A DNA stretch of 22,779 nucleotides from the UHGV virus genome UHGV-0189340, one strand, 5' to 3'. Of this stretch, positions 4,971 to 22,779 are shown in pieces. The stretch's first letter is position 1. Each line of letters starts with the position of its first letter. Below the pieces are notes generated by a model. That model was not told the origin of the DNA and did not search any database. It saw only the letters and a program-made list of their open reading frames with translations. This DNA comes from a virus. The position numbers and the translations under genes are program-made.

Positions 4971-5007
4971 AACATCCTCACTTGTATAGAAAATAAAATA
5001 CATAAAA

Positions 5008-6188: not shown

Positions 6189-6456
6189 TGAGTAACCTCG
6201 TAATGGTCTGTTCCCGACGCTGTGCCCGCGCTCCGGCATCGATGAGCTCACCGCGCAGTAAGACCTGAGCGGTCTCATTTTCCCCACGGATACGGGAGGC
6301 CGTTTTAAGCTGGCTTTTCAGCATGGTAATCACCGTTTTTTGGTCACCGGCGACTTTATTCGCCCGTTCAAAGGAACGGGTCAGACTGGTGTTTTCGTGG
6401 CGCATCCAGAGCAGCCCGGCCACGGCCAGCACTAACAACACGACTATCGTTTTCAT
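6043..6456 (-). CDS. lysB: Inner-membrane i-spanin (LysB/Rz-like)
   Basis: 137 aa with N-terminal transmembrane segment (IVVLLVLAVAGLLW) followed by a charged coiled-coil region; directly downstream of the endolysin. Confidence 0.75.
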   Translation of the reverse strand: MKTIVVLLVLAVAGLLWMRHENTSLTRSFERANKVAGDQKTVITMLKSQLKTASRIRGENETAQVLLRGELIDAGARAQRREQTITRLLNENEQLRRWYSADLPDAVRRLHQRAACADAGDCLQRMSEGQPLPDAGK

Positions 6457-6962: not shown

Positions 6963-7167
6963 GAATAACCCCCTTATCAATCCCCATCGAGACGAGATAG
7001 CGGTATTTCTTTCGCTGGTACCAGAAGTTAACCAGCGCGGTAAAAATGGCGCAGCTTCCCCCGACATAAAGCGCGAGCCGTTCCGGCGTCTGCGTACCGA
7101 AATACGCCAGCACCACTGACAGCCAGTAGGTCAGAAAGGTTGTGATTTTATCCACAGTCAGTCCCAT
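6946..7167 (-). CDS. Y: Holin (two predicted transmembrane helices; pinholin-like)
   Basis: 73 aa with two hydrophobic helices and a charged C-terminus, between X and the endolysin. Confidence 0.72.
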   Translation of the reverse strand: MGLTVDKITTFLTYWLSVVLAYFGTQTPERLALYVGGSCAIFTALVNFWYQRKKYRYLVSMGIDKGVIRGLIR

Positions 7168-7361
7168 AAATTCACGGTCTCCGATACCGGTGCGGTGTCA
7201 ACTTCAGGCAGACTGACCGCCGTGCCATGTGGCAGGACGACGCCCAGCTCGGCGAGTCCCGGATTAGCCAGCAATACCGCCTCGACCACACCTTCAGTGC
7301 GCCCGTAATGGCGCTGACATAACGTGTCGAGCGTGTCGCCCTGATGCGCGAAGATGTTCAT
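7158..7361 (-). CDS. X: Tail protein X (LysM-like), P2 gpX-like
   Basis: 67 aa; sequence (…HQGDTLDTLCQRHYGRTEGVVEAVLLANPGLAELGVVLPHGTAV…TAPVSETVNLWD) closely matches the recalled P2 gpX. Confidence 0.9.
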   Translation of the reverse strand: MNIFAHQGDTLDTLCQRHYGRTEGVVEAVLLANPGLAELGVVLPHGTAVSLPEVDTAPVSETVNLWD

Positions 7362-7861
7362 CAGATTTGCCCCACGATGCAGCGCGCTTTGTCCTGGATA
7401 CGGGCAACCGACCAGCGCATGTCACGCCACATTTCATCGATGGTGTCATCGATGCTGTCGGCCTTTTTGTCACCTTTGGCGCTCGCATCAACGCCCCGGT
7501 AACGCTCGTACAGCGTCGCGGTCGTCATCGAGCAAACAGCGTTGAAGTAGTGAAAAACCCGCACACTTTCGCCGTCGAGTTCATCCGTCGGCACATCCTC
7601 AAGTCGCGCGTAACCGGCGGCGAGCTGAAGGTCGCGCCAGTCGGTTAACTCGGCGTTGGTCTCCGCCATCGCGGTTTTAATCGCCCGGCGCAGACGCACC
7701 GGCGTCACGGTCTGCTCGAGGCGCATTTCTTCGCGCATGCGCTTCGGATCAACATCCGGGAAAAAGGCCGTGTTTTTAATCACCGGCTCGTCAACCGGCA
7801 CCGGCGGGATGACCATCGGGTCGCGCTGTTGCGCCGGGTTATTCATCACAATCATGGTCAT
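7361..7861 (-). CDS. L: Head completion protein, P2 gpL-like
   Basis: 166 aa (P2 gpL 169 aa), between M and X; stop overlaps the X start. Confidence 0.88.
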   Translation of the reverse strand: MTMIVMNNPAQQRDPMVIPPVPVDEPVIKNTAFFPDVDPKRMREEMRLEQTVTPVRLRRAIKTAMAETNAELTDWRDLQLAAGYARLEDVPTDELDGESVRVFHYFNAVCSMTTATLYERYRGVDASAKGDKKADSIDDTIDEMWRDMRWSVARIQDKARCIVGQI

Positions 7862-7958
7862 GAGTACCTCAGTAAATAGGTGGGCGGTGGACGCCGGTCG
7901 CAGTTACGGTGAATCACCGACATTGACCAGCGTGCCGCCCGGCGCGGGGCGCGTTCTG

Positions 7959-8717
7959 TTAACCGGTGACTTTCTTCGGGCGTCCCCGCCCTCGTTTCAC
8001 CGGTGAATCTTGTTTTTTCGCGGGTGCCTTTTTCGCGGCTTTCGGCGCCGTTTTTTTGACGACGACCGGTTTCGGGTTCAGCTCACGAGTGAGGGTCTCA
8101 ATGTCCTTTCTTACCCCGGCGTTGGTGTCGAGCTGTAAGGCGCGTTGCAGGTGCGCCAGTGCATCAGGAAGCTGACCGGCATCACGCAGGGTCAGACCGG
8201 TGACCTTATGCAGTCGGGCGCGCACTTCGTCAGGCATATCGGCGGCATCGGTCAGCCCGATGACCTCGAGCAGTTGCGAAGCGTCGACCGGCTCACCGGC
8301 GATACGGGCGCGGAGAGCCGCGAGCGCGACCTCTTCGGCCAGCATATAAGGCGCGGGGCGGGAATGATTTTCCGGCATAGACAGGTCAAAACGCAGGGCA
8401 TAGCGCGCAATCTCGACAGCGCCGGTGATATCCCCCGCATCCAGACGCCAGAGCATCACCGTCATCAGAATGTCATCCTGTGCGCCGGTGCCGCTTTCCA
8501 GTACGCCAGCGACCCACGGCAGGTACAGCGGGAGTAATTCGCGTTTTTTATCCGCTTTGCGTTCTTTAGAACGAATCGCTGATAGCGTCCGGCGGTCTGC
8601 GGCCAGCTTGACGAGCATTTGCTCGTAAGGTGAGGCATGACGCAGCGGGGCATTGTCCCGCTGCGATGCCCTGACAGCCGAGACCCGCATCGCGTGACGC
8701 TGTGCGGGGGTTGCCAT
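7959..8717 (-). CDS. M: Terminase small (endonuclease) subunit, P2 gpM-like
   Basis: 252 aa with Lys/Ala/Pro-rich basic C-terminal tail (…KKTAPKAAKKAPAKK…RGRGRPKK), downstream of N. Confidence 0.88.
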   Translation of the reverse strand: MATPAQRHAMRVSAVRASQRDNAPLRHASPYEQMLVKLAADRRTLSAIRSKERKADKKRELLPLYLPWVAGVLESGTGAQDDILMTVMLWRLDAGDITGAVEIARYALRFDLSMPENHSRPAPYMLAEEVALAALRARIAGEPVDASQLLEVIGLTDAADMPDEVRARLHKVTGLTLRDAGQLPDALAHLQRALQLDTNAGVRKDIETLTRELNPKPVVVKKTAPKAAKKAPAKKQDSPVKRGRGRPKKVTG

Positions 8718-8720
8718 CGG

Positions 8721-9926
8721 TTACGCCTCCACGCCGTCAGTGGTGCCGGTTTCAGCCGGGGAAGTTTCGCCGTCAGCGACAGGCGCGCTGGCCGGAGCGG
8801 TGCCGGTCAGAGACTGCATTGCCTTGACCATCTCAGCAGCAAATACCGCCGCGCTGACCGGTTCGGTGGTGGCGGTTTCTTCCTGCTCGAGAATTTCGAT
8901 ATTCTCAATCAGGCAACCGGCCTCGTAGTCTTCGATAACAAAATCGACTTTTACCTGCTCATAGTTCTCCACCTGATCCAGTTTCGGATTCTCGACGATG
9001 TGGCGGCGGTGGCCGTCTTCGTACAGATAGATTGAAATGTTATCCAGCGTGGTGATGAAAACGCTGTTTGCCGGGAAGAACGGCGCGCGCACCGCCTGAA
9101 GCTGACCGATGGTTTTCTGGCTGATAATCAGCTCACCGGCGAGCTGTTCGCTGTTCGCCTGGAATTTGTTAATCATCGGGAAGTATTTGTCGGTCAGGAT
9201 ACGGCGACCACAGATAACGACCATTTCCGGGTTTTCACGGTGAATTTCCGCGACCAGCGACTCGAAAGCATCCATGACCATCGCGTCGAGGTTGGCGTAA
9301 TGACCACCCTTATCTTTTGAGCCGATTTTGATGGTGTCGGAAATCACTTTTCCGTCATCATCGGTAATGCAGGACATTACGCGCTCGGGCGCATCGTTGC
9401 GGTATTTCTGCAACCAGCCGACAGCCACGTCCTGAAGCAGCGGATTCTGAGCACGGTCAGAAGTCGCCGCCTGGCTCACGCCGTTAAAGCCGATAGTGAT
9501 GTAATCCAGCGCCTGACGCTTGATGATGGCGTTACGGATTCGGATTTGGAAATCCTGAAAACGCGCCCACAGGTCGAGTTTGTTGTACTTCAGGTGATAG
9601 TCGAAGTTCACCGGGTGGCAGAAATAGCGATATGCATCGAGCTTCGCGAAATCAGCGGTTTTACGCTCGACACCTCCGTCGGTGTCAGCGGTGCTGGCAA
9701 TGGAGCCGGTCACATCGATGCCGACTTTCTCTTCGGTCAGCTCGGAAACGGTCACCATGTTGATGAGCTTCAGGAAGCTGGACGACTGCTGAATTTTGTC
9801 AAACAGGGTCTGAGTGACCGACGGCTCGACAGTGAATTTTTTGTCGAGGTCGCTGGCCTCGATGCCGTTCAGTTCGGCGATACGGCTCAGATATTTATTG
9901 AATTGAAAACGGGTTTCTTTACGCAT
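8721..9926 (-). CDS. N: Major capsid protein, P2 gpN-like, with about 40-aa C-terminal extension
   Basis: N-terminus MRKETRFQFNKYLSRIAELNGIEASDLDKKFTVEPSVTQTL and the remainder align by eye with recalled P2 gpN (357 aa); this ORF is 401 aa. Confidence 0.9.
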   Translation of the reverse strand: MRKETRFQFNKYLSRIAELNGIEASDLDKKFTVEPSVTQTLFDKIQQSSSFLKLINMVTVSELTEEKVGIDVTGSIASTADTDGGVERKTADFAKLDAYRYFCHPVNFDYHLKYNKLDLWARFQDFQIRIRNAIIKRQALDYITIGFNGVSQAATSDRAQNPLLQDVAVGWLQKYRNDAPERVMSCITDDDGKVISDTIKIGSKDKGGHYANLDAMVMDAFESLVAEIHRENPEMVVICGRRILTDKYFPMINKFQANSEQLAGELIISQKTIGQLQAVRAPFFPANSVFITTLDNISIYLYEDGHRRHIVENPKLDQVENYEQVKVDFVIEDYEAGCLIENIEILEQEETATTEPVSAAVFAAEMVKAMQSLTGTAPASAPVADGETSPAETGTTDGVEA

Positions 9927-9957
9927 GGGTTATGTGTTCCTTCGGGTTTATCAGGGG

Positions 9958-10821
9958 TTAGCAGTCGGTCAGCGTGGAGCCCGCCGAATCACCGTCGCCA
10001 CCGGCGCTTAACTTGCGGCGCGGTTGCGTTTTGTCTTCGGTGTTTTCCAGCGTGTTTTTGATGGTGCTGAATTGCTGCGTGGTGGCTGCGGCCTGTTCGT
10101 TCAGCGCTTTTTTGACGGCAGCGACATCACTTTCAAGCTGGCTGAAACGCACCTCAGCGCTTTCGCCGCCGGTCTGCACCTGCACGGCGATGGCGGTCAC
10201 GGCTTCGTGCACGTCACCGAATCGCGCATCGTCGTCAGCCTGTTTACGGCTGAAGATGCCTTTCACGGTGTCGCTGATTTTGGTCAGCAGGTTGTCGGGC
10301 AGGTCTTCGAATTCCAGCTCGGCAAGGGTTGCCACTGAGAACAGGTCGCCCGGCTGGTCTTTCTTACCGGCCAGTGGGTTTTGTTGTACGCGGGAGCAGA
10401 ATTGCAGGTATTCGGTACCGAGGCTTGCCGGGTCATCGGTTACCGCCAGCCCGATGAGGTGACATTTGCCGGTATTGGCAAAGTTCGGGCGAATTTCCAT
10501 CGAGGTGTAAACCTTCTGGCCTTTCGCCAGCATCGCGAGCAGGTTGTCGAGCGGGGCAATTTTGCCGAACAGCGCCAGCTTGCCGTTGAGTGCCGAGTCG
10601 TCGTCGATCACTTGCGCTTTCACTTCCGTGACATCGCCATAGCGGCAAAACGGGCTGTCGGGAATAACGCTGCGGATATGCTCGAGGTTAATGCGACAGC
10701 CGTAGACGCGCGGGTCAAAGCCGTCGGCCATGTCCTGAATATCGGTCGCACTGATGACGCGACCGTCGCAGGTGTCACCCTCGACGCCGATGCGAAACCA
10801 TTTCGAATTTTTTTTAGCCAT
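9958..10821 (-). CDS. O: Capsid scaffolding protein, P2 gpO-like
   Basis: 287 aa (P2 gpO 284 aa); first gene of the leftward O-N-M-L operon, divergent from P. Confidence 0.88.
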   Translation of the reverse strand: MAKKNSKWFRIGVEGDTCDGRVISATDIQDMADGFDPRVYGCRINLEHIRSVIPDSPFCRYGDVTEVKAQVIDDDSALNGKLALFGKIAPLDNLLAMLAKGQKVYTSMEIRPNFANTGKCHLIGLAVTDDPASLGTEYLQFCSRVQQNPLAGKKDQPGDLFSVATLAELEFEDLPDNLLTKISDTVKGIFSRKQADDDARFGDVHEAVTAIAVQVQTGGESAEVRFSQLESDVAAVKKALNEQAAATTQQFSTIKNTLENTEDKTQPRRKLSAGGDGDSAGSTLTDC

Positions 10822-10985
10822 GAGTCAGGTGTCCTGAGTTGGGTTATCGGGTCGGTTGTAGTTTCCCGACTCAGCCGCTCACCAGCCACCGGTTACAGAA
10901 GTGCAACCCCTGACACAACAGGGGGTTAGCGATTCATCCCCCCTGAATCTTTAGCCTTGCCGTGTACTCATCACGGCGAGGTTTT
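10822..10985. promoter_or_regulatory. Divergent late promoter region between O (leftward) and P (rightward)
   Basis: 164-bp intergenic region between divergently oriented late operons, as in P2. Contains short hairpins (CCCCTG-N6-CAGGGG; CCGTG-N7-CACGG). I could not pick out a clean TGT-N12-ACA activator site. Confidence 0.5.
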
Positions 10986-12755
10986 ATGACCACTACAACC
11001 GACACATCACTACTCAACGATCCGCGACGACAGGCCGCGCTTTTGTTCTGGCAGGGCTATTCCGTGCCACAAATCGCGGAACAGTTGCAGGTCAAGCGCC
11101 CCACGGTGCAGAGCTGGAAGCAGCGCGATAAATGGGAAAAAACCGCACCGTTAAACCGGGTCGAGTTCACGCTCGAGGCTCGGCTGATTCAGCTCTATGC
11201 AAAGCCTGACCTGACGGCTCATGACTTTAAGGTCGCGGATTTTCTGGCGCGCCAGATGGAACGCCTCGCGCGGGTCAGTCGTTACGGTCAGACAGGTAAC
11301 GCAGCGGATTTAAACCCGAACGTGGCCAACCGCAACAAAGGGGAAAAGAAGAAGCCGAAAAAGAACTTTTTCAGCGAAGAGGCTATCGACAAGCTCGAAG
11401 AGATTTTCCTCGACCAGTCTTTCGACTATCAGCTCGAGTGGTGGCGCGCGGGGCTGGCGCACCGTATCAGGCACATCCTGAAATCACGACAGATTGGAGC
11501 GACATTCTACTTTGCGCGAGAGGCGCTGTTACAGGCGCTGAAGACCGGCCACAACCAGATATTTTTATCGGCCAGTAAGACACAGGCCTATGTATTTCGA
11601 AAATACATCATCGCCTTTGCCCGACTGGCTGGCGTCGAGCTCACCGGCGACCCGATTGTGCTCGGCAACAATGGCGCGGAGCTGATGTTTCTCGGCACCA
11701 ATGCCAACACGGCGCAGAGCCACAACGGCGACCTGTATGTCGATGAAATTTTCTGGATCCCCAACTTCCAGAAGCTGAAGCGCGTTGCCGGTGGCATGTC
11801 TTCACAGGAGCATTTGCGCACGACCTATTTTTCGACCCCCTCATCGCTGGCGCACGGTGCCTATCCGTTCTGGTCGGGTGAACAGTTCAACAAGGGACGC
11901 TCAGACAAGAGCGAGCGCGTCGATATCGATATCAGTCACGCAGCACTCGCGAAGGGTGTCGCTTGCCCGGACGGCCAGTGGCGGCAGATTGTCACCATCG
12001 AGGACGCACTCGCTAAAGGGTGCACACTGTTTAACATCGACACGCTGAAGCGCGAGAACAGCGTCGATGAGTTCCGTAATCTGTTTATGTGCGAGTTCGT
12101 CGACGATAAAGCGTCGGTATTCCCGTTCGAAGAGCTGCAACGCTGCATGGTCGACAGCCTCGAGAAATGGGAGGACTACACGCCATTTGCCGACCGGCCT
12201 TTCGGTCACCGCCCGGTGTGGATTGGTTACGACCCGTCATTACGCGGCGACAGCGCCGGGTGCGTCGTCATCGCGCCGCCAGTCGTCGCCGGTGGACGAT
12301 TCCGAATCCTCGAGCGCCATCAGTGGAAAGGGATGGATTTTGCTCAACAGGCCGAATCCATTCGCGAGCTCACGCAGAAATATACCGTCGAATACATCGG
12401 CATCGATGCGACCGGGCTCGGACAGGGCGTTTTCCAGTTAGTGCGCTCATTCTACCCGGCAGCGCGTGAAATCCGCTACACGCCGGAAATGAAAACCGCA
12501 ATGGTGCTGAAAGCCAAAGACACCATTCGCCGCGGTTGCCTCGAGTACGACGTCAGCGCGACCGATATCACGCAGTCGTTTATGTCTATCCGCAAAACCA
12601 TGACCAGCAGCGGGCGCAGCTCGACCTATGAGGCCAGCCGCACCGAGGAAGCCAGTCACGCCGATCTCGCGTGGGCAACCATGCACGTATTAATCAATGA
12701 GCCGCTGACCGCCGCGACCGGCGAACAGTCATCCAGTATTATGGAGTGGAACTAA
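10986..12755 (+). CDS. P: Terminase large (ATPase) subunit, P2 gpP-like
   Basis: 589 aa from the ATG at 10986 (GAGG 5 nt upstream); P2 gpP is about 590 aa. Stop overlaps the Q start (TAATG). Confidence 0.9.
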   Translation: MTTTTDTSLLNDPRRQAALLFWQGYSVPQIAEQLQVKRPTVQSWKQRDKWEKTAPLNRVEFTLEARLIQLYAKPDLTAHDFKVADFLARQMERLARVSRYGQTGNAADLNPNVANRNKGEKKKPKKNFFSEEAIDKLEEIFLDQSFDYQLEWWRAGLAHRIRHILKSRQIGATFYFAREALLQALKTGHNQIFLSASKTQAYVFRKYIIAFARLAGVELTGDPIVLGNNGAELMFLGTNANTAQSHNGDLYVDEIFWIPNFQKLKRVAGGMSSQEHLRTTYFSTPSSLAHGAYPFWSGEQFNKGRSDKSERVDIDISHAALAKGVACPDGQWRQIVTIEDALAKGCTLFNIDTLKRENSVDEFRNLFMCEFVDDKASVFPFEELQRCMVDSLEKWEDYTPFADRPFGHRPVWIGYDPSLRGDSAGCVVIAPPVVAGGRFRILERHQWKGMDFAQQAESIRELTQKYTVEYIGIDATGLGQGVFQLVRSFYPAAREIRYTPEMKTAMVLKAKDTIRRGCLEYDVSATDITQSFMSIRKTMTSSGRSSTYEASRTEEASHADLAWATMHVLINEPLTAATGEQSSSIMEWN

Positions 12756-13783
12756 TGAGCAAGAATCGCAACAACAAGCGACAGCAGCCGCGCCCCCAAA
12801 GTCACACCGCCGCATCGGCACAGAGCATGGAGGCATTCACCTTTGGCGAGCCGACGCCGGTACTCGATCGCCGCGACATTCTCGATTATGTGGAGTGCAT
12901 CGACAACGGCCAATGGTATGAGCCGCCGGTGAGCTTCTCCGGGCTGGCGAAGAGCATGCGCGCCGCCGTTCATCACAGCTCACCGATTTACGTGAAGCGT
13001 AATATTCTGGTGTCGACCTACATCCCGCACCCGCTGTTATCGCGTCAGGATTTCAGCCGGTTCGTGCTCGATTATCTGGTATTTGGCAACGCCTTTCTCG
13101 AAGAGCGTCGCGGTCTGACTGGCAAGCCGCTAAAGCTGGAGACCTCACCGGCCAAATATACCCGTCGTGGCGTTGATGATGACGTGTACTGGTATATCCA
13201 GTCCTACACGCAACCGCACCAGTTTTCGCCCGGTTCCGTCTTCCACCTGCTTGAGCCTGATATTAATCAGGAGCTGTACGGGATGCCGGAATACCTGAGC
13301 GCACTCAATTCAGCCTGGCTGAATGAGTCAGCGACACTGTTTCGTCGCAAGTATTACCAGAACGGCGCGCACGCAGGGTACATCATGTATGTGACCGATG
13401 CCGCTCAGAACAGCACTGACGTCGAAGCGTTGCGAAAGGCGATGCGCGACTCGAAAGGGCTCGGCAATTTTAAGAATCTGTTTTTCTACGCACCGCACGG
13501 TAAACCGGATGGGATTAAAATTGTGCCGCTGAGCGAAGTCGCGACGAAGGATGATTTTTTTAATATCAAGAAAGTCAGCGCCGCTGACCTGCTCGACGCG
13601 CACCGCATCCCGTTCCAGTTGATGGGCGGCAAGCCTGAGAACGTCGGCTCAGTGGGCGATATTGAGAAAGTGGCAAAAGTATTTGTTCGCAATGAATTAA
13701 CTCCATTGCAAGATAGGATTCGTGAATTAAATCATTGGTTTGGTGATAATTTAATTAAGTTCAAGCCGTATACCTTTGATTAA
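12755..13783 (+). CDS. Q: Portal protein, P2 gpQ-like
   Basis: 342 aa from the ATG overlapping the P stop (P2 gpQ 344 aa); the P-Q pair is transcribed toward cos as in P2. Confidence 0.9.
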   Translation: MSKNRNNKRQQPRPQSHTAASAQSMEAFTFGEPTPVLDRRDILDYVECIDNGQWYEPPVSFSGLAKSMRAAVHHSSPIYVKRNILVSTYIPHPLLSRQDFSRFVLDYLVFGNAFLEERRGLTGKPLKLETSPAKYTRRGVDDDVYWYIQSYTQPHQFSPGSVFHLLEPDINQELYGMPEYLSALNSAWLNESATLFRRKYYQNGAHAGYIMYVTDAAQNSTDVEALRKAMRDSKGLGNFKNLFFYAPHGKPDGIKIVPLSEVATKDDFFNIKKVSAADLLDAHRIPFQLMGGKPENVGSVGDIEKVAKVFVRNELTPLQDRIRELNHWFGDNLIKFKPYTFD

Positions 13784-13839: not shown

Positions 13840-14526
13840 TTATTGCTTATCTTGTGGTGGTGGAACCTCTTTTTCTAAATTATCTACATACTCTCTAATA
13901 TTGAATGCTTTGTTTTTCCTTATTTCGGTAGTGTTAACCTTACTAACACCATCACGAATGTTTTTATTTATGGTGTCTATTAATTTTTGTCTTTCTTGTT
14001 CTGTTTTTATTATTTCACTTAAGAATGACTTTGCGTTTCTTGAAATGTCCGTCTGTCTATTAATGAATAGTATCGCATACACTGAAAAAACCAAGCAAGT
14101 AGTCGTTAGTGCGGAATTAAAAAATACCCCATAATAAACATTAACTTTTGTTATTGACGCTGATAACGTTAGTGATATCAAAAAAAACAAAATCAGGGTA
14201 AAAATATATGCAATGGTTACTTTGTTTTTAGTGGTGTCAAGAATGTATGAAGTTCTTTGATCATCAAAGTAATCCTTTATCCTTGATGGAGTGTTTGCGG
14301 GGAGTTCTAACTCCTTTATTTTATCATCAGCATCAATTAGTCGCTTAAACATGAGGCTAATGATTACGGCGCTAAAGACAGAGATCCCCTTTGAAATTAT
14401 AGGATCGAAATCAATTAAAAATGAGTATTTTGAATAAACAAAAACAATAACAAAACCACATATAAGCCCAATTACAATTGAGCTTGCTATGTTTTTTGCA
14501 TATGTTTGTAACGTATTGTTTATCAT
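13840..14526 (-). CDS. Uncharacterised four-helix membrane protein; second gene of cargo operon, candidate membrane effector
   Basis: 228 aa, AT-rich. Four hydrophobic helices in a 2+2 arrangement (about residues 13-31, 47-60, 105-126, 132-155) and a charged C-terminal tail. Its ATG overlaps the upstream stop (ATGA). Confidence 0.75.
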   Translation of the reverse strand: MINNTLQTYAKNIASSIVIGLICGFVIVFVYSKYSFLIDFDPIISKGISVFSAVIISLMFKRLIDADDKIKELELPANTPSRIKDYFDDQRTSYILDTTKNKVTIAYIFTLILFFLISLTLSASITKVNVYYGVFFNSALTTTCLVFSVYAILFINRQTDISRNAKSFLSEIIKTEQERQKLIDTINKNIRDGVSKVNTTEIRKNKAFNIREYVDNLEKEVPPPQDKQ

Positions 14527-15506
14527 GGGTTAATTACTCCGGTGTCTAGTAAGCGCAATAACCATGAAATCATTTCTTCAGCAACGTTGTCAGCAATTAG
14601 CATTCCATTGCTGTATTCAATATTAACTGAATCCTTTAGTTGAATCTCATCATTCCTGAGTATTCCTGCACCTTTTAACTCAATTGTTAAGCTTTCATCT
14701 CTATTATCAACCAAGCCTTGTGTAATTTTACGCAACATGTCTTGCTCAGACTCGCTTGCTTTATATTTATACCCAATGGAAATATCAATTGATAGAGATT
14801 CCCTGTCAGGTGAACCATCATTTAAAATGGCATTTTTCTTCATTTCATTAATTCGATGTTCACCTACGAGCGTTTTTAATAGCTCACTAGCTGTATCATC
14901 AATATTATTTCCATAGTAGGTTAAAGGCAGCTTTAAGCTAACATTTTTTACTATGTTACGTTTTAAAAAATCCGTATTTAGAGACAGGTTGTTTGCCTGT
15001 AAAACGATGAAGTTATCATCAGTAATAGATAGGTTGTCTTGTAGTATGAAATTTATATAATTTTCAATATCTTTTATTCTAATAGATCTGCTTTGCAGAA
15101 TTATGAAGTGGTTCTTAATCACACCAATGTATGCAATGCTTTCTAAATACTCTCTAGCATTCCCACTTGATAAATTTAATGTCTCGTATGTTAAAGCTGT
15201 TTTAGCATAATCGCTAACAGAGAAAACAGGAATGCTACTACCCGGTTCAATATAGACAATTTCCGCAAAAAACATTCCATGAATTTCTTTGCTATTTGAA
15301 AGAACCATGTGGGCGTGAGCAGCGACATTACCATTATTATCTGGAACATCAGGGAAGAATAATCTATCAGCAACATTTGGAACCTTGATTTTCACAAGGT
15401 TTGCCAACCTATCTTGCAGGTTTGATGTTAAAAGAGCATCCTTTTTAGGAAGCATTATTGCATGGCGATAATGCAGCATTTTACTCTTATAATCTTGCGT
15501 TGCCAT
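14523..15506 (-). CDS. Uncharacterised soluble protein; first gene of cargo operon, candidate sensor or enzymatic partner
   Basis: 327 aa, AT-rich, Asn/Ile/Leu-rich. Good RBS (AGAGGGA, 5-nt spacer) before the ATG at 15506. No Walker A, HxH or other motif I recognise. Confidence 0.78.
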   Translation of the reverse strand: MATQDYKSKMLHYRHAIMLPKKDALLTSNLQDRLANLVKIKVPNVADRLFFPDVPDNNGNVAAHAHMVLSNSKEIHGMFFAEIVYIEPGSSIPVFSVSDYAKTALTYETLNLSSGNAREYLESIAYIGVIKNHFIILQSRSIRIKDIENYINFILQDNLSITDDNFIVLQANNLSLNTDFLKRNIVKNVSLKLPLTYYGNNIDDTASELLKTLVGEHRINEMKKNAILNDGSPDRESLSIDISIGYKYKASESEQDMLRKITQGLVDNRDESLTIELKGAGILRNDEIQLKDSVNIEYSNGMLIADNVAEEMISWLLRLLDTGVINP

Positions 15507-16249: not shown

Positions 16250-18403
16250 CTATGGCGCTGCGGAGAAAATTTCACCTTTGGACGTTCCACGCAACCATTT
16301 ACCGTTAATACAACTTTTGCCACCTGCTATCAGGTGCAGGGCTTCTCCCCGGCTGATGGTAATGCCGGTTGTCAGACGGATCTCGTCGATAGTTTTTTCT
16401 ATCGGAGCACTTTGCTCATCTGTTCCGTGGATAAATTTCGGCCTCTTAGGTGGCTTTGGTTTCCTGATTCGGTTCGTCAGCTCTCGCCTTTCACGTCGAC
16501 TCAGGGGTTTTGATAAATCGAGTTCCGGTGGATCGCTTTCGCTTCCCGTACAGTTATTGACAGAACTCGAACTCCAAGGGACGGCGAAGCCGTCCTTAAC
16601 GTCAAAGGCCAAATCAACGGCACGCTTCGGAACAATTTTCCATTGCGTGAGCCGGGTTAAAATCGGAGTGCCAACACCAACGGTGGAGTCGTACACACCA
16701 CGAATGCAGACAGTTTCCTCACCATACTGGTTAAACTCGGTGCGCGGTTCATAAAGCGTACGCACCTGCAAATCATCGCGACGGACAAACGGACCGCCCT
16801 GCGCATTAACATAGCCAGCCCAATCACCGGCATCGGCGGCATCATGGACAGCCGCAAACTCAACACTTAGACCGTGCGCGGTCTCGGTATCTGCAAGGCG
16901 ACGCAATTCACGATAAACAGTCACTGGTGCACCACCGATAAACTGAAACTGACGAATATGCCAGCGCGCCGCCCATGCTGAAACGGCGGGGGCTGTCTCT
17001 TTCAACAGTTCACCGTTTTCGTCATCGGTTTCGTCATCAAGAGCGTAACCGTCGATATTTTTCGAGATGTATTTCGCGACGTAGCCGGTTGCGCTGCCTT
17101 TCTCCGGATCAATGGCTTCTGCGTGGAAACGTGCTTTTTTGGCTTTATCGCTTTTGAGTTCGTGAAAATCTTCTTGCCATGCGTAGTCCCGAATAATGCC
17201 ACGAACGGTATCGACGTCCTCCGGGAGCATAAACATCAGCATATGCCAGTGAGGGCACCCGTCATGGTGAGGCTCTGCAACGCGGATCCCGAAAATACGA
17301 ATGTCTTCACGGTGGAGTTTTGCGCGAATGCGTGCCCACAGGCCAGTGAGATAACATTGCGTATCGGATGGATTGGATCCATTCCATTTGGTGTTACGGT
17401 AGCCTGCCTTTGTCGTGGCGTGATATTTAGACGGTGCGGTCAGGGTGTAAAACTCACCAACATAACCGAGCTCATTGCAGATATTTTCAAACCCACGAAT
17501 GCGGGTCATAAGCTCACAGCGTCGAATCGCAGAGTTAGCGACTGAACCATCGTATTTTTCAATCAGGCTGATACGGTTGCCGTCTTCGTCTTCAAGCTCC
17601 AGACCTTTGAGAAATTCGCGCGTCCGGCGCTTCTGTTCACGCCAGTCTGTCACGCAGTTTTTACTCGCGTAGACATGTTTTTTCTTACTGACATTTCCGA
17701 TTGCGATTTGCAGGTGTTCGCGCCACGCAGCCGCAACGCGACGCAGACGGCCACGCCACCATTTTTCCGAAAACATACGGGCAATTGCTGGAGCGACTTT
17801 ATCCTGATCCCAATATTTATCCCGCGACCGTTCCCACTCTGGTGGCATTATCCTGAATTGCTGAGTGATGAAACCAGCATGCATATACCAGGCATTTAAT
17901 GTCTCCAGTTCACACATGTCAGAATCGTCAATGTTGACTAACTCTGCACGGATAAAATCGGCGATATCAGCAGCCAGCAGGTCGATGTCGGCGCGTGCCA
18001 TATCCGGGAGTCGGTTGTATCTGGCGACTATGTTGACCATGCGAGACGCCAGATATTGCATAAGCTGAGTATCGAAATGACAACCGAAAACAGCGGCTGA
18101 TACGTTGCTGTTAATACCGGTACACTCGTATTTTTTTGCGACCAGTTCAAAACGCGGCAATGCCTTTTTGCAGAAGCTTATTAAAAAAGCATTGGCTCGT
18201 TGACTGCCCTGATTTTGCTCCAGCACCGCAGCAGTGCGATAAACGTCAAAACGTACACACTCGGGCTGGAGGGAAAGCACCTTTCTAGCATGCAGCAAAG
18301 CCGCGAGCATACGGTCGCGGCGATACTGTTGGTCGTAGGTAAGATATGGACTGGCTATTGCCGACCGTGGAGCATTCCACGGAAACGCGAATTGAACAGC
18401 CAA
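16250..18403 (-). CDS. A: Replication initiation endonuclease, P2 gpA-like (rolling-circle initiator)
   Basis: 717-aa ORF (P2 gpA 761 aa) at the distal end of the early operon, before the cos-proximal region; a P2-type ori would be expected inside its 3' part. Confidence 0.88.
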   Translation of the reverse strand: MAVQFAFPWNAPRSAIASPYLTYDQQYRRDRMLAALLHARKVLSLQPECVRFDVYRTAAVLEQNQGSQRANAFLISFCKKALPRFELVAKKYECTGINSNVSAAVFGCHFDTQLMQYLASRMVNIVARYNRLPDMARADIDLLAADIADFIRAELVNIDDSDMCELETLNAWYMHAGFITQQFRIMPPEWERSRDKYWDQDKVAPAIARMFSEKWWRGRLRRVAAAWREHLQIAIGNVSKKKHVYASKNCVTDWREQKRRTREFLKGLELEDEDGNRISLIEKYDGSVANSAIRRCELMTRIRGFENICNELGYVGEFYTLTAPSKYHATTKAGYRNTKWNGSNPSDTQCYLTGLWARIRAKLHREDIRIFGIRVAEPHHDGCPHWHMLMFMLPEDVDTVRGIIRDYAWQEDFHELKSDKAKKARFHAEAIDPEKGSATGYVAKYISKNIDGYALDDETDDENGELLKETAPAVSAWAARWHIRQFQFIGGAPVTVYRELRRLADTETAHGLSVEFAAVHDAADAGDWAGYVNAQGGPFVRRDDLQVRTLYEPRTEFNQYGEETVCIRGVYDSTVGVGTPILTRLTQWKIVPKRAVDLAFDVKDGFAVPWSSSSVNNCTGSESDPPELDLSKPLSRRERRELTNRIRKPKPPKRPKFIHGTDEQSAPIEKTIDEIRLTTGITISRGEALHLIAGGKSCINGKWLRGTSKGEIFSAAP

Positions 18404-19889: not shown

Positions 19890-20114
19890 TTAGGCTGCCA
19901 CATAGCGGCAATTAAGGCCCTGAGCCAAGAGTCGAGCACGGAAGGCAACCATATTGATACGCGCAGCACCACCGTCTTTTTTACGGGGCATCAGGAGGAG
20001 ATCTCCATCAGCAACCATCTGTTTTACAGTGCGAATGCTGTAGCCGTAGCATTCAGCAAATTCGTCATAAGTCATGAGATTCGCGCCGGACGGGATTGCA
20101 ATTTGTGGAGTCAT
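19890..20114 (-). CDS. apl: Apl/Cox-like excisionase and switch regulator
   Basis: 74-aa first gene of the lytic operon, divergent from cI and directly upstream of cII, as apl is in 186. Assignment is by position and size only. Confidence 0.6.
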   Translation of the reverse strand: MTPQIAIPSGANLMTYDEFAECYGYSIRTVKQMVADGDLLLMPRKKDGGAARINMVAFRARLLAQGLNCRYVAA

Positions 20115-20239
20115 AAGTAATCATCTCCGGTTACTAGTTGGTTTGGTGCATTGGCGTGCATTTTTAAATTCAAGCGAGAATATTATCTCGAAAAAGCGAG
20201 ATGTCAATTTGGATTTTCGCGATAACTCGGATTTTTAAG
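20115..20239. promoter_or_regulatory. Lysis-lysogeny switch region (divergent pR/pL-type promoters and operators)
   Basis: 125-bp AT-rich intergenic region between divergent apl (minus) and cI (plus) starts. Contains repeated GCGAG/GCGAT-like motifs; individual operators not resolved. Confidence 0.5.
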
Positions 20240-20818
20240 ATGAGATTGGATGAGTTAGAGGGTGGAAAAGCAGTGCTGCAGCGCATCCTTGATGCGTATG
20301 GCTTCACCATGCAAAAACAACTCGGTGACTTGCATGAGCTGTCATCGGGAACAATCAGCACTTGGGTTCGGCGTAATTTTTTCCCCGGGGATGTTGTTGT
20401 TGCATGCGCTTTGGACACTGGGGTGTCTTTACGTTGGTTGGCAACAGGGAAGGGGAACAAGTTTGATGCAGACCATACTAATGGCGAAATGAAAACATTA
20501 GACCGATTGGATATTGTTGCAGGTAAGCTGCAGGAAAACGGTCATTGGATTGTTGATGCTAACCTCTTTTCTACTGAGGCGACGCACCCCAATTACATAG
20601 TAAAAGGCCAGCAGTCTTGGATAGTTGATTTTGATATGACTGATATAGCAAATGGGCGATGGATGCTCAGTATCGACGGGGATCATGATGTCTATGACGT
20701 TGCAAGGATCCCGGGGAACAGAATAAAAGTCAGCAACGCTGATGCCGATTTTCAATGCTCAGTTTCTGAGGTTAAGTGTATTGGCATGGTGCTGGTAAGC
20801 CTGACGAAATCTAGCTAA
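20240..20818 (+). CDS. cI: Immunity repressor, phage 186 CI-like
   Basis: Start at MRLDELEGG gives 192 aa, the length of 186 CI. Directly upstream of int on the same strand (cI-int operon as in 186). No obvious S24 Ser/Lys autocleavage motifs. Confidence 0.8.
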   Translation: MRLDELEGGKAVLQRILDAYGFTMQKQLGDLHELSSGTISTWVRRNFFPGDVVVACALDTGVSLRWLATGKGNKFDADHTNGEMKTLDRLDIVAGKLQENGHWIVDANLFSTEATHPNYIVKGQQSWIVDFDMTDIANGRWMLSIDGDHDVYDVARIPGNRIKVSNADADFQCSVSEVKCIGMVLVSLTKSS

Positions 20819-20822
20819 CGAT

Positions 20823-21860
20823 ATGAGTGTTAAAAAACTGACATCGGGTGAATGGCTTTGTGATTTCCGCGTCGACGGGGCTGAAAGTCGCCGCGTGCGT
20901 AAGAAGTTTTCAACCAAAGGTGAAGCCGTTGCCTTCGAACAGTATTACCGAGAAGAGGCACAAAATAAGCCGTGGATGGGTGAGAAGGAAGACCGTCGAC
21001 GTTTGAGTGAACTGATTGAGCTGTGGCATAACCTCCATGGCCAGTCGCTCGCTGCCAGCAAATCGCGATTGGCCAAACTGCACATTGTTTGCCGGGGTCT
21101 TGGCGACCCAATCGCTACCCAGCTTACCGCCAAAGATTTCGCCCATTATCGGGATAAACGTCTCAAGGGTGAAATCGACAATGGCTATCACGCAAATTCT
21201 GAAAAGTGGATTGCGAAACCTGTGACTGTGAACCGGGAACAACAGTACCTCGAAGCTGTTTTCAATGAGCTGAAGCGCTTGGGTGAGTGGAGTCTGCCAA
21301 ATCCTCTCGAAGGTGTGCGAGTTTTCAAAGAAGCCGAAAAAGAAATGTCTTGGCTTACCCAGCCTCAAATTCGCGAAGTGCTCAATGCTTGTGAGTCATA
21401 CGGGAAAATTTATTTAACCCGTATCGTCAAAGTGTGCTTAGCGACTGGTGCTCGATGGAGCGAGGCCGAGCGTCTTACTCGTTCACAGCTTTCACCCCAC
21501 AAGTTGACTTTCACTAAAACGAAGGGAAAGAAGAATCGTACAGTACCGATCCCTCGGTGGCTATATGACGAGTTGGCTCCTTTACAGGGAAAAATGTTCC
21601 ACCCCTGCTATCAGGAGTTCAAGAAAATGCTCGCTCTGACCGATATAGAGTTAGCTGAAGGGCAAAAAACGCATGTGTTACGTCATACATTTGCGAGTCA
21701 CTTTATGATGAATGGTGGGAACATTTTAGTACTGCAACGAATCTTGGGCCATTCTAACATTAGGGAAACCATGAGATACGCTCATTTTGCACCAGATCAT
21801 TTAGAAGAAGCTGTAACTCTTAACCCTATTTCTAATTTAACAGGATTATATGATGAGTGA
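20823..21860 (+). CDS. int: Tyrosine integrase (P2/186 Int family)
   Basis: 345 aa; C-terminal catalytic region with conserved R...HxLRHT...R...Y pattern (HVLRHTFASHF...GHSNIRETMRYAH). Confidence 0.9.
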   Translation: MSVKKLTSGEWLCDFRVDGAESRRVRKKFSTKGEAVAFEQYYREEAQNKPWMGEKEDRRRLSELIELWHNLHGQSLAASKSRLAKLHIVCRGLGDPIATQLTAKDFAHYRDKRLKGEIDNGYHANSEKWIAKPVTVNREQQYLEAVFNELKRLGEWSLPNPLEGVRVFKEAEKEMSWLTQPQIREVLNACESYGKIYLTRIVKVCLATGARWSEAERLTRSQLSPHKLTFTKTKGKKNRTVPIPRWLYDELAPLQGKMFHPCYQEFKKMLALTDIELAEGQKTHVLRHTFASHFMMNGGNILVLQRILGHSNIRETMRYAHFAPDHLEEAVTLNPISNLTGLYDE

Positions 21861-22779
21861 GCCAACCATCGAAACACCTCCAAGAATGACCGAGGCCAAA
21901 GTCATTAGGGTACGCACTCGTGGTTTTTATAATTTAGTTGAGATAGGTGCAGTCTTTCTAGTTGCAAATGTAATTTTTGCTACAGGGATATTAGACTCAA
22001 CCTTTTATTATTTATTTCCCAGTGCGAGAGCAGATCTTACACATTTGCCGAGCTTTATCAGGTCAATATTCGCAGTGTCATTTGTAATCGTTTACACCAT
22101 TATCTATGGTGTGTCTCCAATCCAAAGAATGTTTATGAGAATTACAGGGAGTGATTCAGTCGACAAATCATCGATGTTTAATATTGTCGATATTATAAAT
22201 GAGATAAAACTACTCAAGAAGGCTCAAGAGGAAAGGGCTGCTGCTGATGAAGATGAATCTCTGGATTTTTATCTTAAAGGTTTGATTAATAGCTCTGAAG
22301 GTCTTGCGAAAAACATATATTCTCGCGGTAGTCTTTATTTATTAGTCGGTGTTTGTTTTGCAATAGTTGGATTAGGTTTCTTCTATTCTCAATCACATGT
22401 AATTGATGCTAAGGATGATGCGGTAACCAAGGTAATGTATCTTCTCCCTAATTTTGGCGTGTTGATTTTCTTGGAGTTAATCGCATTTTTCTTTTTGAAG
22501 CAATATCGGGTTACGATGGATGAGTTTCGCTATTACGAGGCAATAAAACGTTCACGTGAGGAAAGCTATGCCATTATAAAGCTTGTAATGGCTAGCCAGA
22601 AAGATATCGATATGATAGACCTTCTGGATAAAATTAATTTTAGCTCAAGAGTTGGAAAACTAGAATCAGGGCAGACTACTGAAATTATTGAAGCAAGAAA
22701 ATTAGACAAAAATGAACTTGAAACCTTAGTAAAGCTTACCGAGGCAGTTGCGGGTAAGATTGGACAGGGAAATAAGTAG
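21850..22779 (+). CDS. Uncharacterised four-helix membrane protein, translationally coupled to int
   Basis: 309 aa, AT-rich. ATG (21850 or 21853) overlaps the last int codons. Four hydrophobic helices in a 2+2 arrangement with a charged central loop and helical C-terminal tail. Stop codon is the last three bases of the window. Confidence 0.7.
   Translation: MMSEPTIETPPRMTEAKVIRVRTRGFYNLVEIGAVFLVANVIFATGILDSTFYYLFPSARADLTHLPSFIRSIFAVSFVIVYTIIYGVSPIQRMFMRITGSDSVDKSSMFNIVDIINEIKLLKKAQEERAAADEDESLDFYLKGLINSSEGLAKNIYSRGSLYLLVGVCFAIVGLGFFYSQSHVIDAKDDAVTKVMYLLPNFGVLIFLELIAFFFLKQYRVTMDEFRYYEAIKRSREESYAIIKLVMASQKDIDMIDLLDKINFSSRVGKLESGQTTEIIEARKLDKNELETLVKLTEAVAGKIGQGNK

What the first reader, a model, noticed from the sequence alone, without database searches (positions are those of the whole stretch)
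21850..22779. Four-helix membrane protein gene translationally coupled to the 3' end of int, where attP or the host junction is expected
Seen in sequence: the 309-aa ORF starts inside the last int codons (ATGATGAGTGA), is visibly AT-rich and encodes a 2+2 transmembrane-helix protein with a charged central loop and helical C-terminal tail. Its stop is the final triplet of the window, so any partner gene downstream is out of view. Established knowledge: in P2/186 the attachment site lies just downstream of int, so a coupled gene here is not part of the canonical backbone. Inference: either integrase-linked cargo (exclusion or defence, possibly the first gene of a multi-gene system) or a host gene whose 5' end was rebuilt by integration. 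Its topology resembles the 228-aa membrane protein of the Q-cos operon, but I see no sequence identity.
Basis: partly seen in the sequence, partly recalled or inferred. Interest (0 to 1): 0.55.

Follow-up and report, generated by a model that had tools for sequence, protein, structure and literature searches.

The report
Prophage membrane gene coupled to integrase
The gene is real prophage cargo: an uncharacterised four-helix inner-membrane protein made from the same operon as the phage repressor and integrase, most likely to protect the lysogen from other phages, and often kept by bacteria after the prophage has decayed.

Summary
A 309-aa ORF (21850-22779; alternative start 21853) overlaps the int stop codon by 11 or 8 nt. 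It has 37% GC against 50.6% for the window and encodes four TM helices.

Whole genomes show a 186/P2-like prophage inserted in the last codons of rplS. The attR core lies 113 bp past the ORF stop, followed by convergent host yfiB. So the gene is phage cargo between int and att, not a host gene, and nothing follows it.

It belongs to a large unnamed family: 2,414 clusters, no Pfam or PADLOC model, all annotated as hypothetical. There is no conserved partner in 39 distant loci. In 14 other P2-like contigs a homologue sits in the cI-int operon, 13 times after int and once between cI and int. The start/stop coupling to int is conserved, yet identity is only 37-47% where Int is 61-96%. The N-terminal two-thirds is hypervariable; TM4 and the tail are conserved.

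Homologues outlive prophage decay at rplS in E2348/69, Citrobacter, Enterobacter and Cronobacter. Others lie beside Lamassu, RT/OLD-like, TIR, Abi_C and McrA-like genes.

Best reading: a single-gene, lysogen-expressed membrane defence or exclusion protein. The function is inferred, not tested.

The parts
21850..22779 (+). ORF309, a 4-TM inner-membrane protein (309 aa; 308 aa from the alternative start at 21853). It is accessory cargo of the prophage.
   Evidence: ORF list and sequence. It is 99.9% identical in 17 E. coli chromosomes, always next to this int. Every database entry calls it hypothetical.
21850..21860 (+). Overlap between the int stop codon and the ORF309 start codons (ATGATGAGTGA), a translational-coupling junction.
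   Evidence: Sequence. Most of 15 related loci inspected keep the same kind of junction despite 37-50% protein identity. Forms seen are ATGA, ATGAnTGA and TAGTTATG.
21922..22125 (+). TM1 (aa 25-50), a short periplasmic loop, and TM2 (aa 66-92). This lies in the hypervariable half. E31 and P90 are invariant.
   Evidence: Hydropathy, 70-sequence alignment.
21850..22443 (+). Hypervariable N-terminal two-thirds (aa 1 to about 198). No nucleotide homology is detectable with sister prophages.
   Evidence: In blastn against 10 related loci, homology stops at the end of int and resumes at L001 13645, which is window 22444.
22324..22500 (+). The TM3-TM4 hairpin (aa 159-182 and 194-217). G167, G174, F207 and F215 are invariant; E209 is conserved in at least 90% of sequences. 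The FGILFFIExIAFFFLKQYR motif lies here.
   Evidence: Alignment A1. Sub-threshold Pfam PF20712 matches in 19 of 70 family members fall here.
22444..22776 (+). Conserved module: TM4 plus the charged helical cytoplasmic tail (MDEFRYYEAIKRSREE ... GQTTE..E.RKL).
   Evidence: Alignment A1. Nucleotide homology at 65-77% is retained across sister prophages. PHROG 5157 matches aa 155-287 with E = 3.8e-9.
20823..21860 (+). int, a tyrosine integrase specific for the rplS 3' end.
   Evidence: Pfam Int_N and Phage_integrase. Junction analysis.
20201..20818 (+). cI repressor of the 186 type, the first gene of the cI-int-ORF309 operon.
   Evidence: Pfam Phage_CI_repr and Phage_CI_C. No terminator-like site lies between cI and the host terminator beyond attR on the + strand.
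20023..20052 (+). Promoter-like site upstream of cI (TTTACA-18-TAGCAT), a candidate lysogenic promoter for the operon.
   Evidence: Consensus scan only. The hit is at L001 11224-11253, which is the window coordinate minus 8799. It is not evidence of function.

Best explanation
ORF309 is a self-contained accessory gene (a moron) of a 186/P2-like prophage. It sits in the slot between int and the attachment site.

Expression (inferred): it is transcribed in the lysogen as the last gene of the cI-int-ORF309 operon, and its translation is coupled to int.

Topology: the product inserts into the inner membrane N-in/C-in with four TM helices.

Function (inferred): it protects the lysogen, and after prophage decay the host, against other phages.

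Most likely mechanism (inferred, the weakest step): the hypervariable N-terminal half (TM1, periplasmic loop, TM2, cytoplasmic linker) acts as the specificity or sensor part. The strongly conserved TM3-TM4 hairpin, its membrane-embedded glutamate and the juxtamembrane charged helices act as the effector. The effector would oligomerise and leak ions or depolarise the membrane, which is abortive infection, much as proposed for RexB or 2TM SLATT-type effectors.

Shown here: anatomy, position inside the prophage, linkage to int, family size, lack of a conserved partner, the conservation pattern, and retention in prophage remnants.
For: Position
- attL and attR cores (AGCG[T/C]CTTAACTAA, the last rplS codons) bracket the gene. 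attR lies 113 bp past its stop, and direct repeats resembling Int arm-type sites start at the stop codon.
- The K-12 empty site lacks the gene.
- No + strand terminator occurs before the host terminator beyond attR.

Linkage
- The gene is present in 17 of 17 E. coli genomes that carry this int.
- Fourteen IMG/VR P2-like contigs carry a homologue in the cI-int operon: 13 as cI-int-homologue and one as cI-homologue-int.
- The start/stop coupling is conserved.

Arms-race signature
- Int is 61-96% identical across these phages while the homologue is 37-47%.
- The N-terminal part, about 198 aa, has no nucleotide homology, whereas TM4, the tail and the att arm do.
- A second E. coli allele at 46% identity occupies the same slot of a near-identical phage.

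Optional slot
- The sister phage in ET490 has nothing between int and att.
- The int-att interval is a reported minor defence hotspot of P2-like phages (PMC13586616).

Host retention
- The gene is intact beside a truncated or vanished int in E2348/69, Citrobacter, Enterobacter and Cronobacter.

Defence and mobile-element neighbourhoods elsewhere
- Neighbours include Lamassu and an RT with a kinase and an OLD-like TOPRIM protein.
- Others are SRA-McrA and DUF4145 beside a lambdoid int/xis, and TIR, Abi_C, Fic and a relaxase.
- One homologue lies at a prophage end after the lysis genes.

Stand-alone gene
- No recurrent neighbour appears in 39 distant loci.
- The top 150 of 2,414 representatives are nearly all 230-400 aa, with no long fusion proteins.

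Effector hints
- 19 of 70 members weakly match the conflict-system 2TM domain PF20712 at TM3-TM4.
- A SLATT protein appears among weak BFVD fold matches.
Against: - There is no experimental or homology-based proof of any anti-phage activity.
- PADLOC has no hit.
- Pfam matches are all below the gathering score.
- PDB sequence and fold searches give only generic helical hairpins.
- The defence-island association was sampled on about 15 annotated loci and not tested statistically. Several neighbours are housekeeping genes or unknown.
- Hypervariability of a periplasm-exposed N-terminal half fits an injection blocker as well as a sensor.
- Expression from the cI promoter is inferred from gene layout only. 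AT-rich cargo of this kind is often silenced.
- No tblastn match was found in 50,697 isolated phage records with this protein or two homologues, so no cultured phage is available for comparison.
Confidence: 0.55

Rival explanations
1. Superinfection exclusion by blocking genome entry. The membrane protein would interfere, through its variable periplasm-facing N-terminal half, with the tape-measure or ejection proteins of incoming phages, or with the inner-membrane host factor they use. This is how HK97 gp15, P22 SieA and T4 Imm work. The infected cell would survive.
For: - The gene sits in the lysogeny operon of a temperate phage.
- It is an inner-membrane protein whose most variable part includes the only sizeable periplasmic loop.
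- Alleles are replaced between near-identical phages.
Against: - The strongly conserved part is cytoplasmic and intramembrane. It is shared from Enterobacteria to Bacteroidota and Bacillus, which is hard to explain by contacts with particular phages.
- Family members also sit in chromosomal defence islands away from prophages.
- There is no sequence match to SieB, Imm or other exclusion families in Pfam.
Confidence: 0.25
2. A lysogenic-conversion membrane protein unrelated to phage defence. Examples would be an ion or small-molecule channel, an envelope-stress or colicin/toxin-tolerance factor, or a modulator of host physiology that raises lysogen fitness.
For: - TM1 carries an invariant glutamate (E31) and TM4 a near-invariant one (E209), which suggests ion handling.
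- The gene is retained after prophage decay.
- Some neighbourhoods are housekeeping.
- No defence database lists the family.
Against: - Extreme allelic diversity next to a conserved int is typical of conflict genes, not physiological ones.
- The family recurs next to Lamassu, RT/OLD-like, TIR, Abi_C and McrA-like genes.
Confidence: 0.12
3. One half of a two-gene unit split by the attachment site. In the circular phage the order is int, ORF309, attP, then a 240-aa gene (WP_000948616) in the same orientation. The two proteins would work together, and integration would separate or rewire them.
For: - The 240-aa gene fills the att-ogr slot at the other prophage end in the same orientation.
- Both genes co-occur in the same 17 E. 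coli genomes.
- Both survive side by side in the Enterobacter hormaechei remnant.
Against: - The co-occurrence in E. coli reflects a single phage lineage.
- The 240-aa protein is 91% identical between E. coli and Enterobacter, while the membrane protein is 48%.
- The Citrobacter and Cronobacter remnants keep only the membrane gene.
- IMG/VR contigs with relatives of the 240-aa gene are not those with ORF309 homologues.
- A phage-supplied terminator and arm-site repeats lie between the two genes in the excised form.
Confidence: 0.06
4. A host gene whose 5' end was rebuilt by prophage integration, or a function in the phage's own life cycle (integration/excision accessory or lysis control).
For: It is adjacent to int and tightly coupled to it.
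Against: - The whole gene lies on the phage side of attR and is absent from the empty site.
- Sister phages with a related int and the same att core lack it.
- Homologues occur far from any integrase.
- It is kept when the prophage is dead.
Confidence: 0.02

Closest known systems
Lambda RexB (with RexA), an exclusion/abortive-infection module co-transcribed with cI
   Same: Both are four-TM inner-membrane proteins encoded in the repressor operon of a temperate coliphage and expressed in the lysogen. The proposed action is loss of membrane potential on infection (established knowledge for Rex).
   Different: There is no sequence relationship (hhalign probability 0.2%). ORF309 is twice as long and has a 92-aa conserved cytoplasmic tail. 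There is no RexA-like sensor partner. It sits after int rather than directly after cI.
2TM conflict-system effectors (SLATT superfamily; Pfam PF20712 CyanoTRADDas_TM)
   Same: Both have a helix-TM-TM-helix hairpin with conserved juxtamembrane helices, and both occur in defence contexts. 19 of 70 family members give weak PF20712 matches exactly at TM3-TM4. A SLATT protein appears among weak BFVD fold matches.
   Different: All matches are below Pfam's gathering score (best E = 5e-4, scores around 14-15 bits against a 24.3-bit cut-off). SLATT proteins are coupled to nucleotide-signal generators, whereas this family stands alone. It also carries an extra variable 2TM N-terminal half.
Prophage superinfection-exclusion membrane proteins (HK97 gp15, P22 SieA, T4 Imm)
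   Same: All are small or medium inner-membrane proteins made by a resident phage that protect against other phages. They are moron-like, AT-rich and variable (established knowledge).
   Different: No homology was detected. The ORF309 family spans several phyla and also occurs outside prophages.
Cargo of the int-att interval of P2-like phages (minor defence hotspot; PMC13586616)
   Same: [quoted passage not shown]
   Different: That study counts recognised defence systems. This gene is recognised by neither PADLOC nor Pfam.
Kiwa KwaA and MotA/ExbB/TolQ-type stator proteins
   Same: The 2+2 TM topology, large cytoplasmic loop and cytoplasmic tail are shared. ExbB and TolQ appear among marginal Foldseek hits.
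   Different: No PADLOC KwaA hit. No PF01618 hit in any of 70 members. Foldseek gives E = 0.58 or worse and TM-scores up to about 0.36. hhalign against TolQ gives 0.3%. There is no KwaB or ExbD/TolR/MotB-like partner.

Membership tests
Kiwa (KwaA/KwaB) | The KwaA profile matches the membrane protein | tested here: not met
   A PADLOC scan at E up to 10 returns only a spurious Cas5a match.
Kiwa (KwaA/KwaB) | An adjacent KwaB (DUF4868) partner gene | tested here: not met
   Downstream are 113 bp, attR and convergent yfiB. No recurrent neighbour is found in 39 loci.
Lambda Rex (RexA/RexB) | Sequence or profile similarity to RexB | tested here: not met
   hhalign of the family profile against lambda RexB gives probability 0.2%. 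No Pfam RexB hit.
Lambda Rex (RexA/RexB) | A RexA-like cytoplasmic partner in the same operon | tested here: not met
   The operon is cI-int-ORF309 only.
Lambda Rex (RexA/RexB) | Co-transcription with the repressor in the lysogen | tested here: inconclusive
   Same strand, overlapping stop and start, and no terminator-like site before the host terminator. No transcript data.
SLATT / PF20712 2TM effectors | Profile match above the curated threshold | tested here: inconclusive
   19 of 70 members match PF20712 at E < 0.1 (best 5e-4). All scores shown are about 14-15 bits, below the 24.3-bit cut-off, and the window protein itself does not match.
SLATT / PF20712 2TM effectors | Genomic coupling to a nucleotide-signal generator or TRADD-N/SMODS/SLOG/TIR partner | tested here: not met
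   No conserved partner. A TIR neighbour is seen in only one locus.
MotA/ExbB/TolQ stators | PF01618 match or significant fold match | tested here: not met
   No PF01618 hit in 70 members. Foldseek against ExbB gives E = 0.58, TM-score 0.27/0.33. hhalign against TolQ gives 0.3%.
MotA/ExbB/TolQ stators | A single-TM partner with a conserved Asp (MotB/ExbD/TolR-like) | tested here: not met
   No partner gene.
P2-like int-att cargo hotspot | [quoted passage not shown] | tested here: met
   attL is at L003 10251-10264. attR is at L001 14094-14107, which is 113 bp after the stop. The hotspot is described in PMC13586616.
PHROG 5157 (unknown function) | Profile match | tested here: met
   E = 3.8e-9 for aa 155-287 against profile positions 180-312 of 331. 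Only the C-terminal module matches.
Anti-phage defence / exclusion gene (functional class) | Reduces infection by at least one phage when expressed | not testable with these tools
   Only contextual evidence is available.

The most novel reading that the evidence does not exclude
ORF309 would found a widespread, so far unnamed family of single-protein membrane immunity genes, with about 2,400 clusters at 50% identity spread from Proteobacteria to Bacteroidota and Bacillus. A hypervariable 2TM sensor half would be fused to a conserved SLATT-like 2TM pore or ion-leak effector, so sensing and killing (or exclusion) would reside in one polypeptide. Temperate phages would carry it in their repressor-integrase operon, and hosts would domesticate it at the rplS locus once the phage dies.
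Probability: 0.3. Interest if true: 0.6.

Novelty: new member of a known kind. Interest (0 to 1): 0.45.

Why it matters
If the inference holds, this is an easily testable one-gene candidate for a new anti-phage membrane protein family that no Pfam, PADLOC or NCBIfam model covers. It has a natural panel of divergent alleles in an otherwise near-identical phage backbone, which suits mapping of specificity determinants by swapping N-terminal halves.

It also gives a clear example of three things:
- The int-att interval and the cI-int operon of 186/P2-like phages serve as a cargo slot.
- A prophage integrates into the 3' end of rplS and supplies a replacement gene end and terminator.
- Cargo genes outlive their prophage and seed a small defence islet between rplS and yfiB in several enterobacterial genera, including the EPEC reference strain E2348/69.

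If it is not a defence gene, it is still an abundant conserved membrane family of unknown role.

Tried and rejected
Family and homology searches
- Pfam, NCBIfam and PADLOC on the protein gave nothing significant.
- A PDB profile search gave zero hits at E up to 10.
- Foldseek against PDB and BFVD gave nothing at E <= 0.001. The best BFVD hit was an unnamed 312-aa viral protein at E = 4e-3.
- The AFDB library was unavailable.
- hhalign of the family profile against lambda RexB, E. coli TolQ and the window's 228-aa membrane protein was negative in all three cases.
- A second word-indexed homology search with the family profile found only more unnamed proteins without Pfam domains.

Collections
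- megablast and tblastn against 50,697 isolated phage records, using three family members, found no match.
- tblastn against 72,556 plasmids found no match.

Literature
- Searches for the protein accessions, the PHROG id and rplS/yfiB P2-like integration found no paper.
- One search was rejected for a term that was too short.
- The two Aravind-group eLife papers do not describe the PF20712 2TM domain in usable detail.

Ideas tested
- Hidden downstream partner: rejected.
- Obligate pairing with the 240-aa gene at the other prophage end: disfavoured.
Full report
**1. The observation**

The window ends with an ORF at 21850-22779 on the + strand, encoding 309 aa. The integrase gene (20823-21860; Pfam Int_N and Phage_integrase) ends with TGA at 21858-21860. 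The ORF begins inside ...TATGATGAGTGA. The overlap is 11 nt from the first ATG, or 8 nt from the second ATG at 21853. The second ATG has the better AGGA spacing and is the start most database entries use (832 contigs against 289). The TAG stop is the last triplet of the window.

GC content is 37.0% (GC3 32.9%), against 46.8% for int and 50.6% for the whole window.

Hydropathy gives four TM segments at aa 25-50, 66-92, 159-182 and 194-217. The N-terminus is basic, there is a 70-aa charged loop, and the tail is 92 aa and charged. This fits an N-in/C-in 2+2 topology. AlphaFold2 with a 70-sequence alignment gives an all-helical model with mean pLDDT 74.7 and pTM 0.59. Two long helices (134-183 and 191-248) run from the cytoplasm through the membrane and back.

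**2. Where the gene sits**

The last 1,980 bases of the window match 17 of 5,426 complete E. coli genomes at 99.8% identity or better. In strain FORC 064 the gene order is:
- rplS, a 240-aa hypothetical gene, then ogr;
- the structural and replication genes of a P2/186-like prophage;
- cI, int, ORF309, a 203-bp gap, then yfiB on the opposite strand.

K-12 has only 75 bp between rplS and yfiB.

Aligning the two junctions with K-12 shows that the element is inserted in the last codons of rplS. The shared core is AGCG(T/C)CTTAACTAA. attL is at L003 10251-10264, where it forms the end of rplS. attR is at L001 14094-14107, 113 bp beyond the ORF309 stop, which would be window position 22893 onward. 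An independent sister prophage in strain ET490 has its right junction at the same core.

Directly after the ORF's stop codon come two imperfect 11-bp-spaced repeats (TAGTGTCCACAATCTGCCCACA). Near attL there are two perfect GAGTGTCCA repeats, also 11 bp apart. From memory, these resemble the TGTGGACA arm-type Int sites of P2. I did not test that.

At attL the phage supplies a new rplS 3' end and its own terminator. On the right side, the first + strand terminator after cI is the host rplS/yfiB hairpin beyond attR.

So ORF309 is inside the prophage, it is the last gene before the host junction, and no partner follows it. The host-gene alternative is refuted.

**3. Optional, integrase-linked cargo**

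The int of this window occurs in exactly the same 17 genomes as ORF309. Four E2348/69 records carry a deletion from a tail-fibre gene to mid-int, yet ORF309 remains 100% intact at the protein level. The ET490 sister phage has the order cI, DUF2511, int, 171 bp, yfiB. It has nothing between int and att and no 240-aa gene at the other end. The slot is therefore facultative.

A 2026 survey of thousands of P2-like prophages reports the int-att interval as a minor defence hotspot holding 3% of their systems (PMC13586616).

**4. The family**

A word-indexed search found 117 relatives, all hypothetical and all without Pfam domains. An exhaustive profile search of 1.84 billion representatives found 2,414 proteins at E <= 1e-3, 1,064 at <= 1e-10 and 321 at <= 1e-30. 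The top 150 are nearly all 230-400 aa, with no long fusion proteins.

Hosts of the loci retrieved include:
- Enterobacteria, Pseudomonas and Shewanella;
- Sphingomonas and Methylobacterium;
- Chitinophaga, Pedobacter, Epilithonimonas and Dyadobacter;
- Bacillus;
- Acidobacteriota and Deltaproteobacteria MAGs.

The protein hits add Alcaligenes, Chromobacterium, Variovorax and Flavobacterium.

The alignment shows a poorly conserved N-terminal half, with only E31 and P90 invariant. The region from TM3 onward is very well conserved. It contains G167 and G174, the motif FGILFFIExIAFFFLKQYR..MDEFRYYEAIKRSREE with E209 conserved in at least 90% of sequences, and then GQTTE..E.RKL.

Database and structure searches gave little:
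- PHROG 5157 (unknown function) matches aa 155-287 at E = 3.8e-9.
- Pfam, NCBIfam and PADLOC give nothing significant for the window protein.
- Scanning all 70 aligned members, one Pfam family recurs: PF20712, a 2TM domain of cyanobacterial TRADD-N conflict systems. It hits 19 members at TM3-TM4, always below the gathering score, with a best E of 5e-4. Other TM families hit at most 3 members.
- The PDB profile search is empty.
- Explicit hhalign tests against RexB, TolQ and the window's 228-aa membrane protein are negative.

**5. Comparative context**

*P2/186-like phages.* Fourteen IMG/VR contigs carry a homologue in the cI-int operon. Several are about 33-34 kb long with the gene at the extreme end. 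Thirteen have the order cI-int-homologue and one (L054) has cI-homologue-int. Int is 61-96% identical to the window's, but the homologue is only 37-47% identical.

At the DNA level, homology runs through int and disappears over codons 1 to about 198 of ORF309. It reappears at 65-77% for TM4 and the tail, and in several loci for the att arm as well.

A second E. coli allele at 46% identity occupies the same slot of a near-identical prophage at the same site. In most of 15 loci inspected, the homologue's start overlaps or abuts the int stop, as ATGA, ATGAnTGA or TAGTTATG. A distant P2-like prophage of Variovorax has a homologue downstream of its repressor.

*Remnants at the rplS locus.*
- Citrobacter genomes have rplS, an int fragment, an intact homologue, then yfiB.
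- Enterobacter hormaechei has rplS, the 240-aa gene, a 53-codon int trace and a homologue.
- Cronobacter has rplS, a homologue, an IS and an AAA_15 ATPase pair, with no int left.

The gene outlives the phage repeatedly.

*Other settings.*
- The end of a siphovirus-like prophage in Alcaligenes.
- Between an SRA-McrA gene and DUF4145, next to a lambdoid int/xis, in Chromobacterium.
- Beside Lamassu in Pseudomonas.
- Beside a reverse transcriptase, a kinase and an OLD-like TOPRIM protein in Flavobacterium.
- Neighbours with TIR, Abi_C, Fic, DUF6602 or relaxase domains in other phyla, mixed with unknown and some housekeeping genes.

*Partners.* All-against-all clustering of ORFs within 5 kb found no neighbour family shared by unrelated loci among 39 distant loci.

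*Absences.* tblastn with this protein and two homologues found no match in 50,697 isolated phage records. tblastn with this protein found none in 72,556 plasmids.

**6. Interpretation**

Several features are the usual signature of a prophage-borne conflict gene that benefits the lysogen:
- The layout (same strand as cI and int, conserved stop/start overlap, no intervening terminator) argues that the protein is made in the lysogen from the repressor operon. This is inference; there are no transcript data.
- The gene is facultative.
- It is AT-rich.
- Its alleles diverge strongly next to a conserved integrase.
- It appears at other prophage ends and in defence-rich neighbourhoods.
- It is retained intact after prophage decay.

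I therefore favour a single-gene anti-phage function, with confidence about 0.55 for this explanation and 0.25 for the exclusion rival.

For the mechanism, one fact stands out. The conserved part is intramembrane and cytoplasmic and is shared across phyla, while the variable part is the N-terminal 2TM half with the only real periplasmic loop. This suggests a variable sensor fused to a conserved effector. The glycine-rich TM3, the membrane-embedded glutamates (E31 invariant, E209 near-invariant) and the weak recurrent PF20712/SLATT signal point to an oligomerising ion-leak or pore module. That would mean abortive infection by depolarisation. This step is the least secure.

A direct block of genome entry fits the variable periplasmic half equally well and is the main rival. 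A non-phage conversion function is a smaller one.

The idea that ORF309 pairs with the 240-aa gene across attP has some appeal. The two genes are colinear in the excised phage and adjacent in the Enterobacter remnant. It is disfavoured for three reasons:
- The two proteins diverge at very different rates (91% against 48% identity).
- Three remnant types keep only ORF309 homologues.
- Viral contigs with relatives of the 240-aa gene do not carry ORF309 homologues.

**7. Comparison with known systems and novelty**

In working principle, the closest analogues are lambda RexB, SLATT-type 2TM effectors and the Sie membrane proteins. In position, it matches the int-att cargo hotspot of P2-like phages.

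It fails every membership test I could run for Kiwa, Rex and MotA/ExbB. The test for SLATT/PF20712 is inconclusive. It is best described as a new, unnamed family that probably belongs to a known kind, namely prophage-encoded membrane defence or exclusion genes.

Interest is moderate. Specialists would not be surprised by a defence moron next to int. However, the family is large and unannotated, it is a single gene, it offers a natural allele series, and it is trivially testable.

Noticed in passing
window 13840-14526 (-) and 14523-15506 (-): Two overlapping unknown genes, a 228-aa TM protein and a 327-aa protein, lie between portal gene Q and replication gene A. This is the classic old/tin defence hotspot of P2-like phages. 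Neither has a significant Pfam hit or a PADLOC hit, so they are an untested candidate two-gene defence system.
   Followed up: partly
outside the window: NZ_CP022664.1 1250469-1251191 (L003 10470-11192): A 240-aa hypothetical protein (WP_000948616) fills the att-ogr slot at the other prophage end, co-oriented with rplS and just after a phage-supplied terminator. It has no Pfam or PADLOC match. It is 91% identical in an Enterobacter prophage remnant, and relatives sit at the ends of other P2-like viral contigs.
   Followed up: partly
L003 10251-10335 and L001 14094-14164 (just beyond the window end): The prophage integrates into the last codons of rplS (core AGCG[T/C]CTTAACTAA). It rebuilds the gene end and supplies its own terminator, while the original rplS/yfiB terminator ends up at attR. 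Repeats spaced 11 bp apart (GAGTGTCCA x2 at attL; GTGTCCACA/CTGCCCACA at attR) look like Int arm sites.
   Followed up: partly
window 16250-18403 (-): Replication gene A is annotated as a pseudogene with an internal stop in FORC 064. In the window the longest ORF is 717 aa and ends about 70 nt before the annotated end. The prophage may be replication-defective.
   Followed up: no
L002 (E. coli E2348/69, NC_011601.1 2976324-2977593): The EPEC reference strain carries a deleted version of this prophage. A tail-fibre gene is joined to the middle of int, and everything between (about 20 kb) is lost. ORF309 and the 240-aa end gene are both intact.
   Followed up: partly
L048 (IMGVR_UViG_2585427976_000004) 5698-8816: A complete int with its att arm is followed by a second partial int and an ORF309 homologue. 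This looks like a new phage integrated beside an older int'-cargo remnant.
   Followed up: no
L054 (IMGVR_UViG_2840427236_000013) 6600-9808; L071 (E. coli ET490) 4714-6993: The cI-int operon has a second cargo slot between cI and int. In L054 it holds an ORF309 homologue, and in the ET490 sister phage it holds a DUF2511 gene.
   Followed up: no
L082 (Cronobacter turicensis) 5382-12951; L013 (Enterobacter hormaechei) 5249-10530: The rplS-yfiB interval has grown into a small accessory islet. In Cronobacter it holds an ORF309 homologue, an IS and an AAA_15/AAA_21 ATPase with a 289-aa partner. Both loci also carry DUF2946 and PepSY_TM genes.
   Followed up: no
window 20023-20052 (+) and 20207-20180 (-): Face-to-face promoter-like sites lie between the apl-like gene (19890-20114, - strand) and cI. 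The arrangement recalls the convergent pR/pL switch of phage 186. These are consensus matches only.
   Followed up: no
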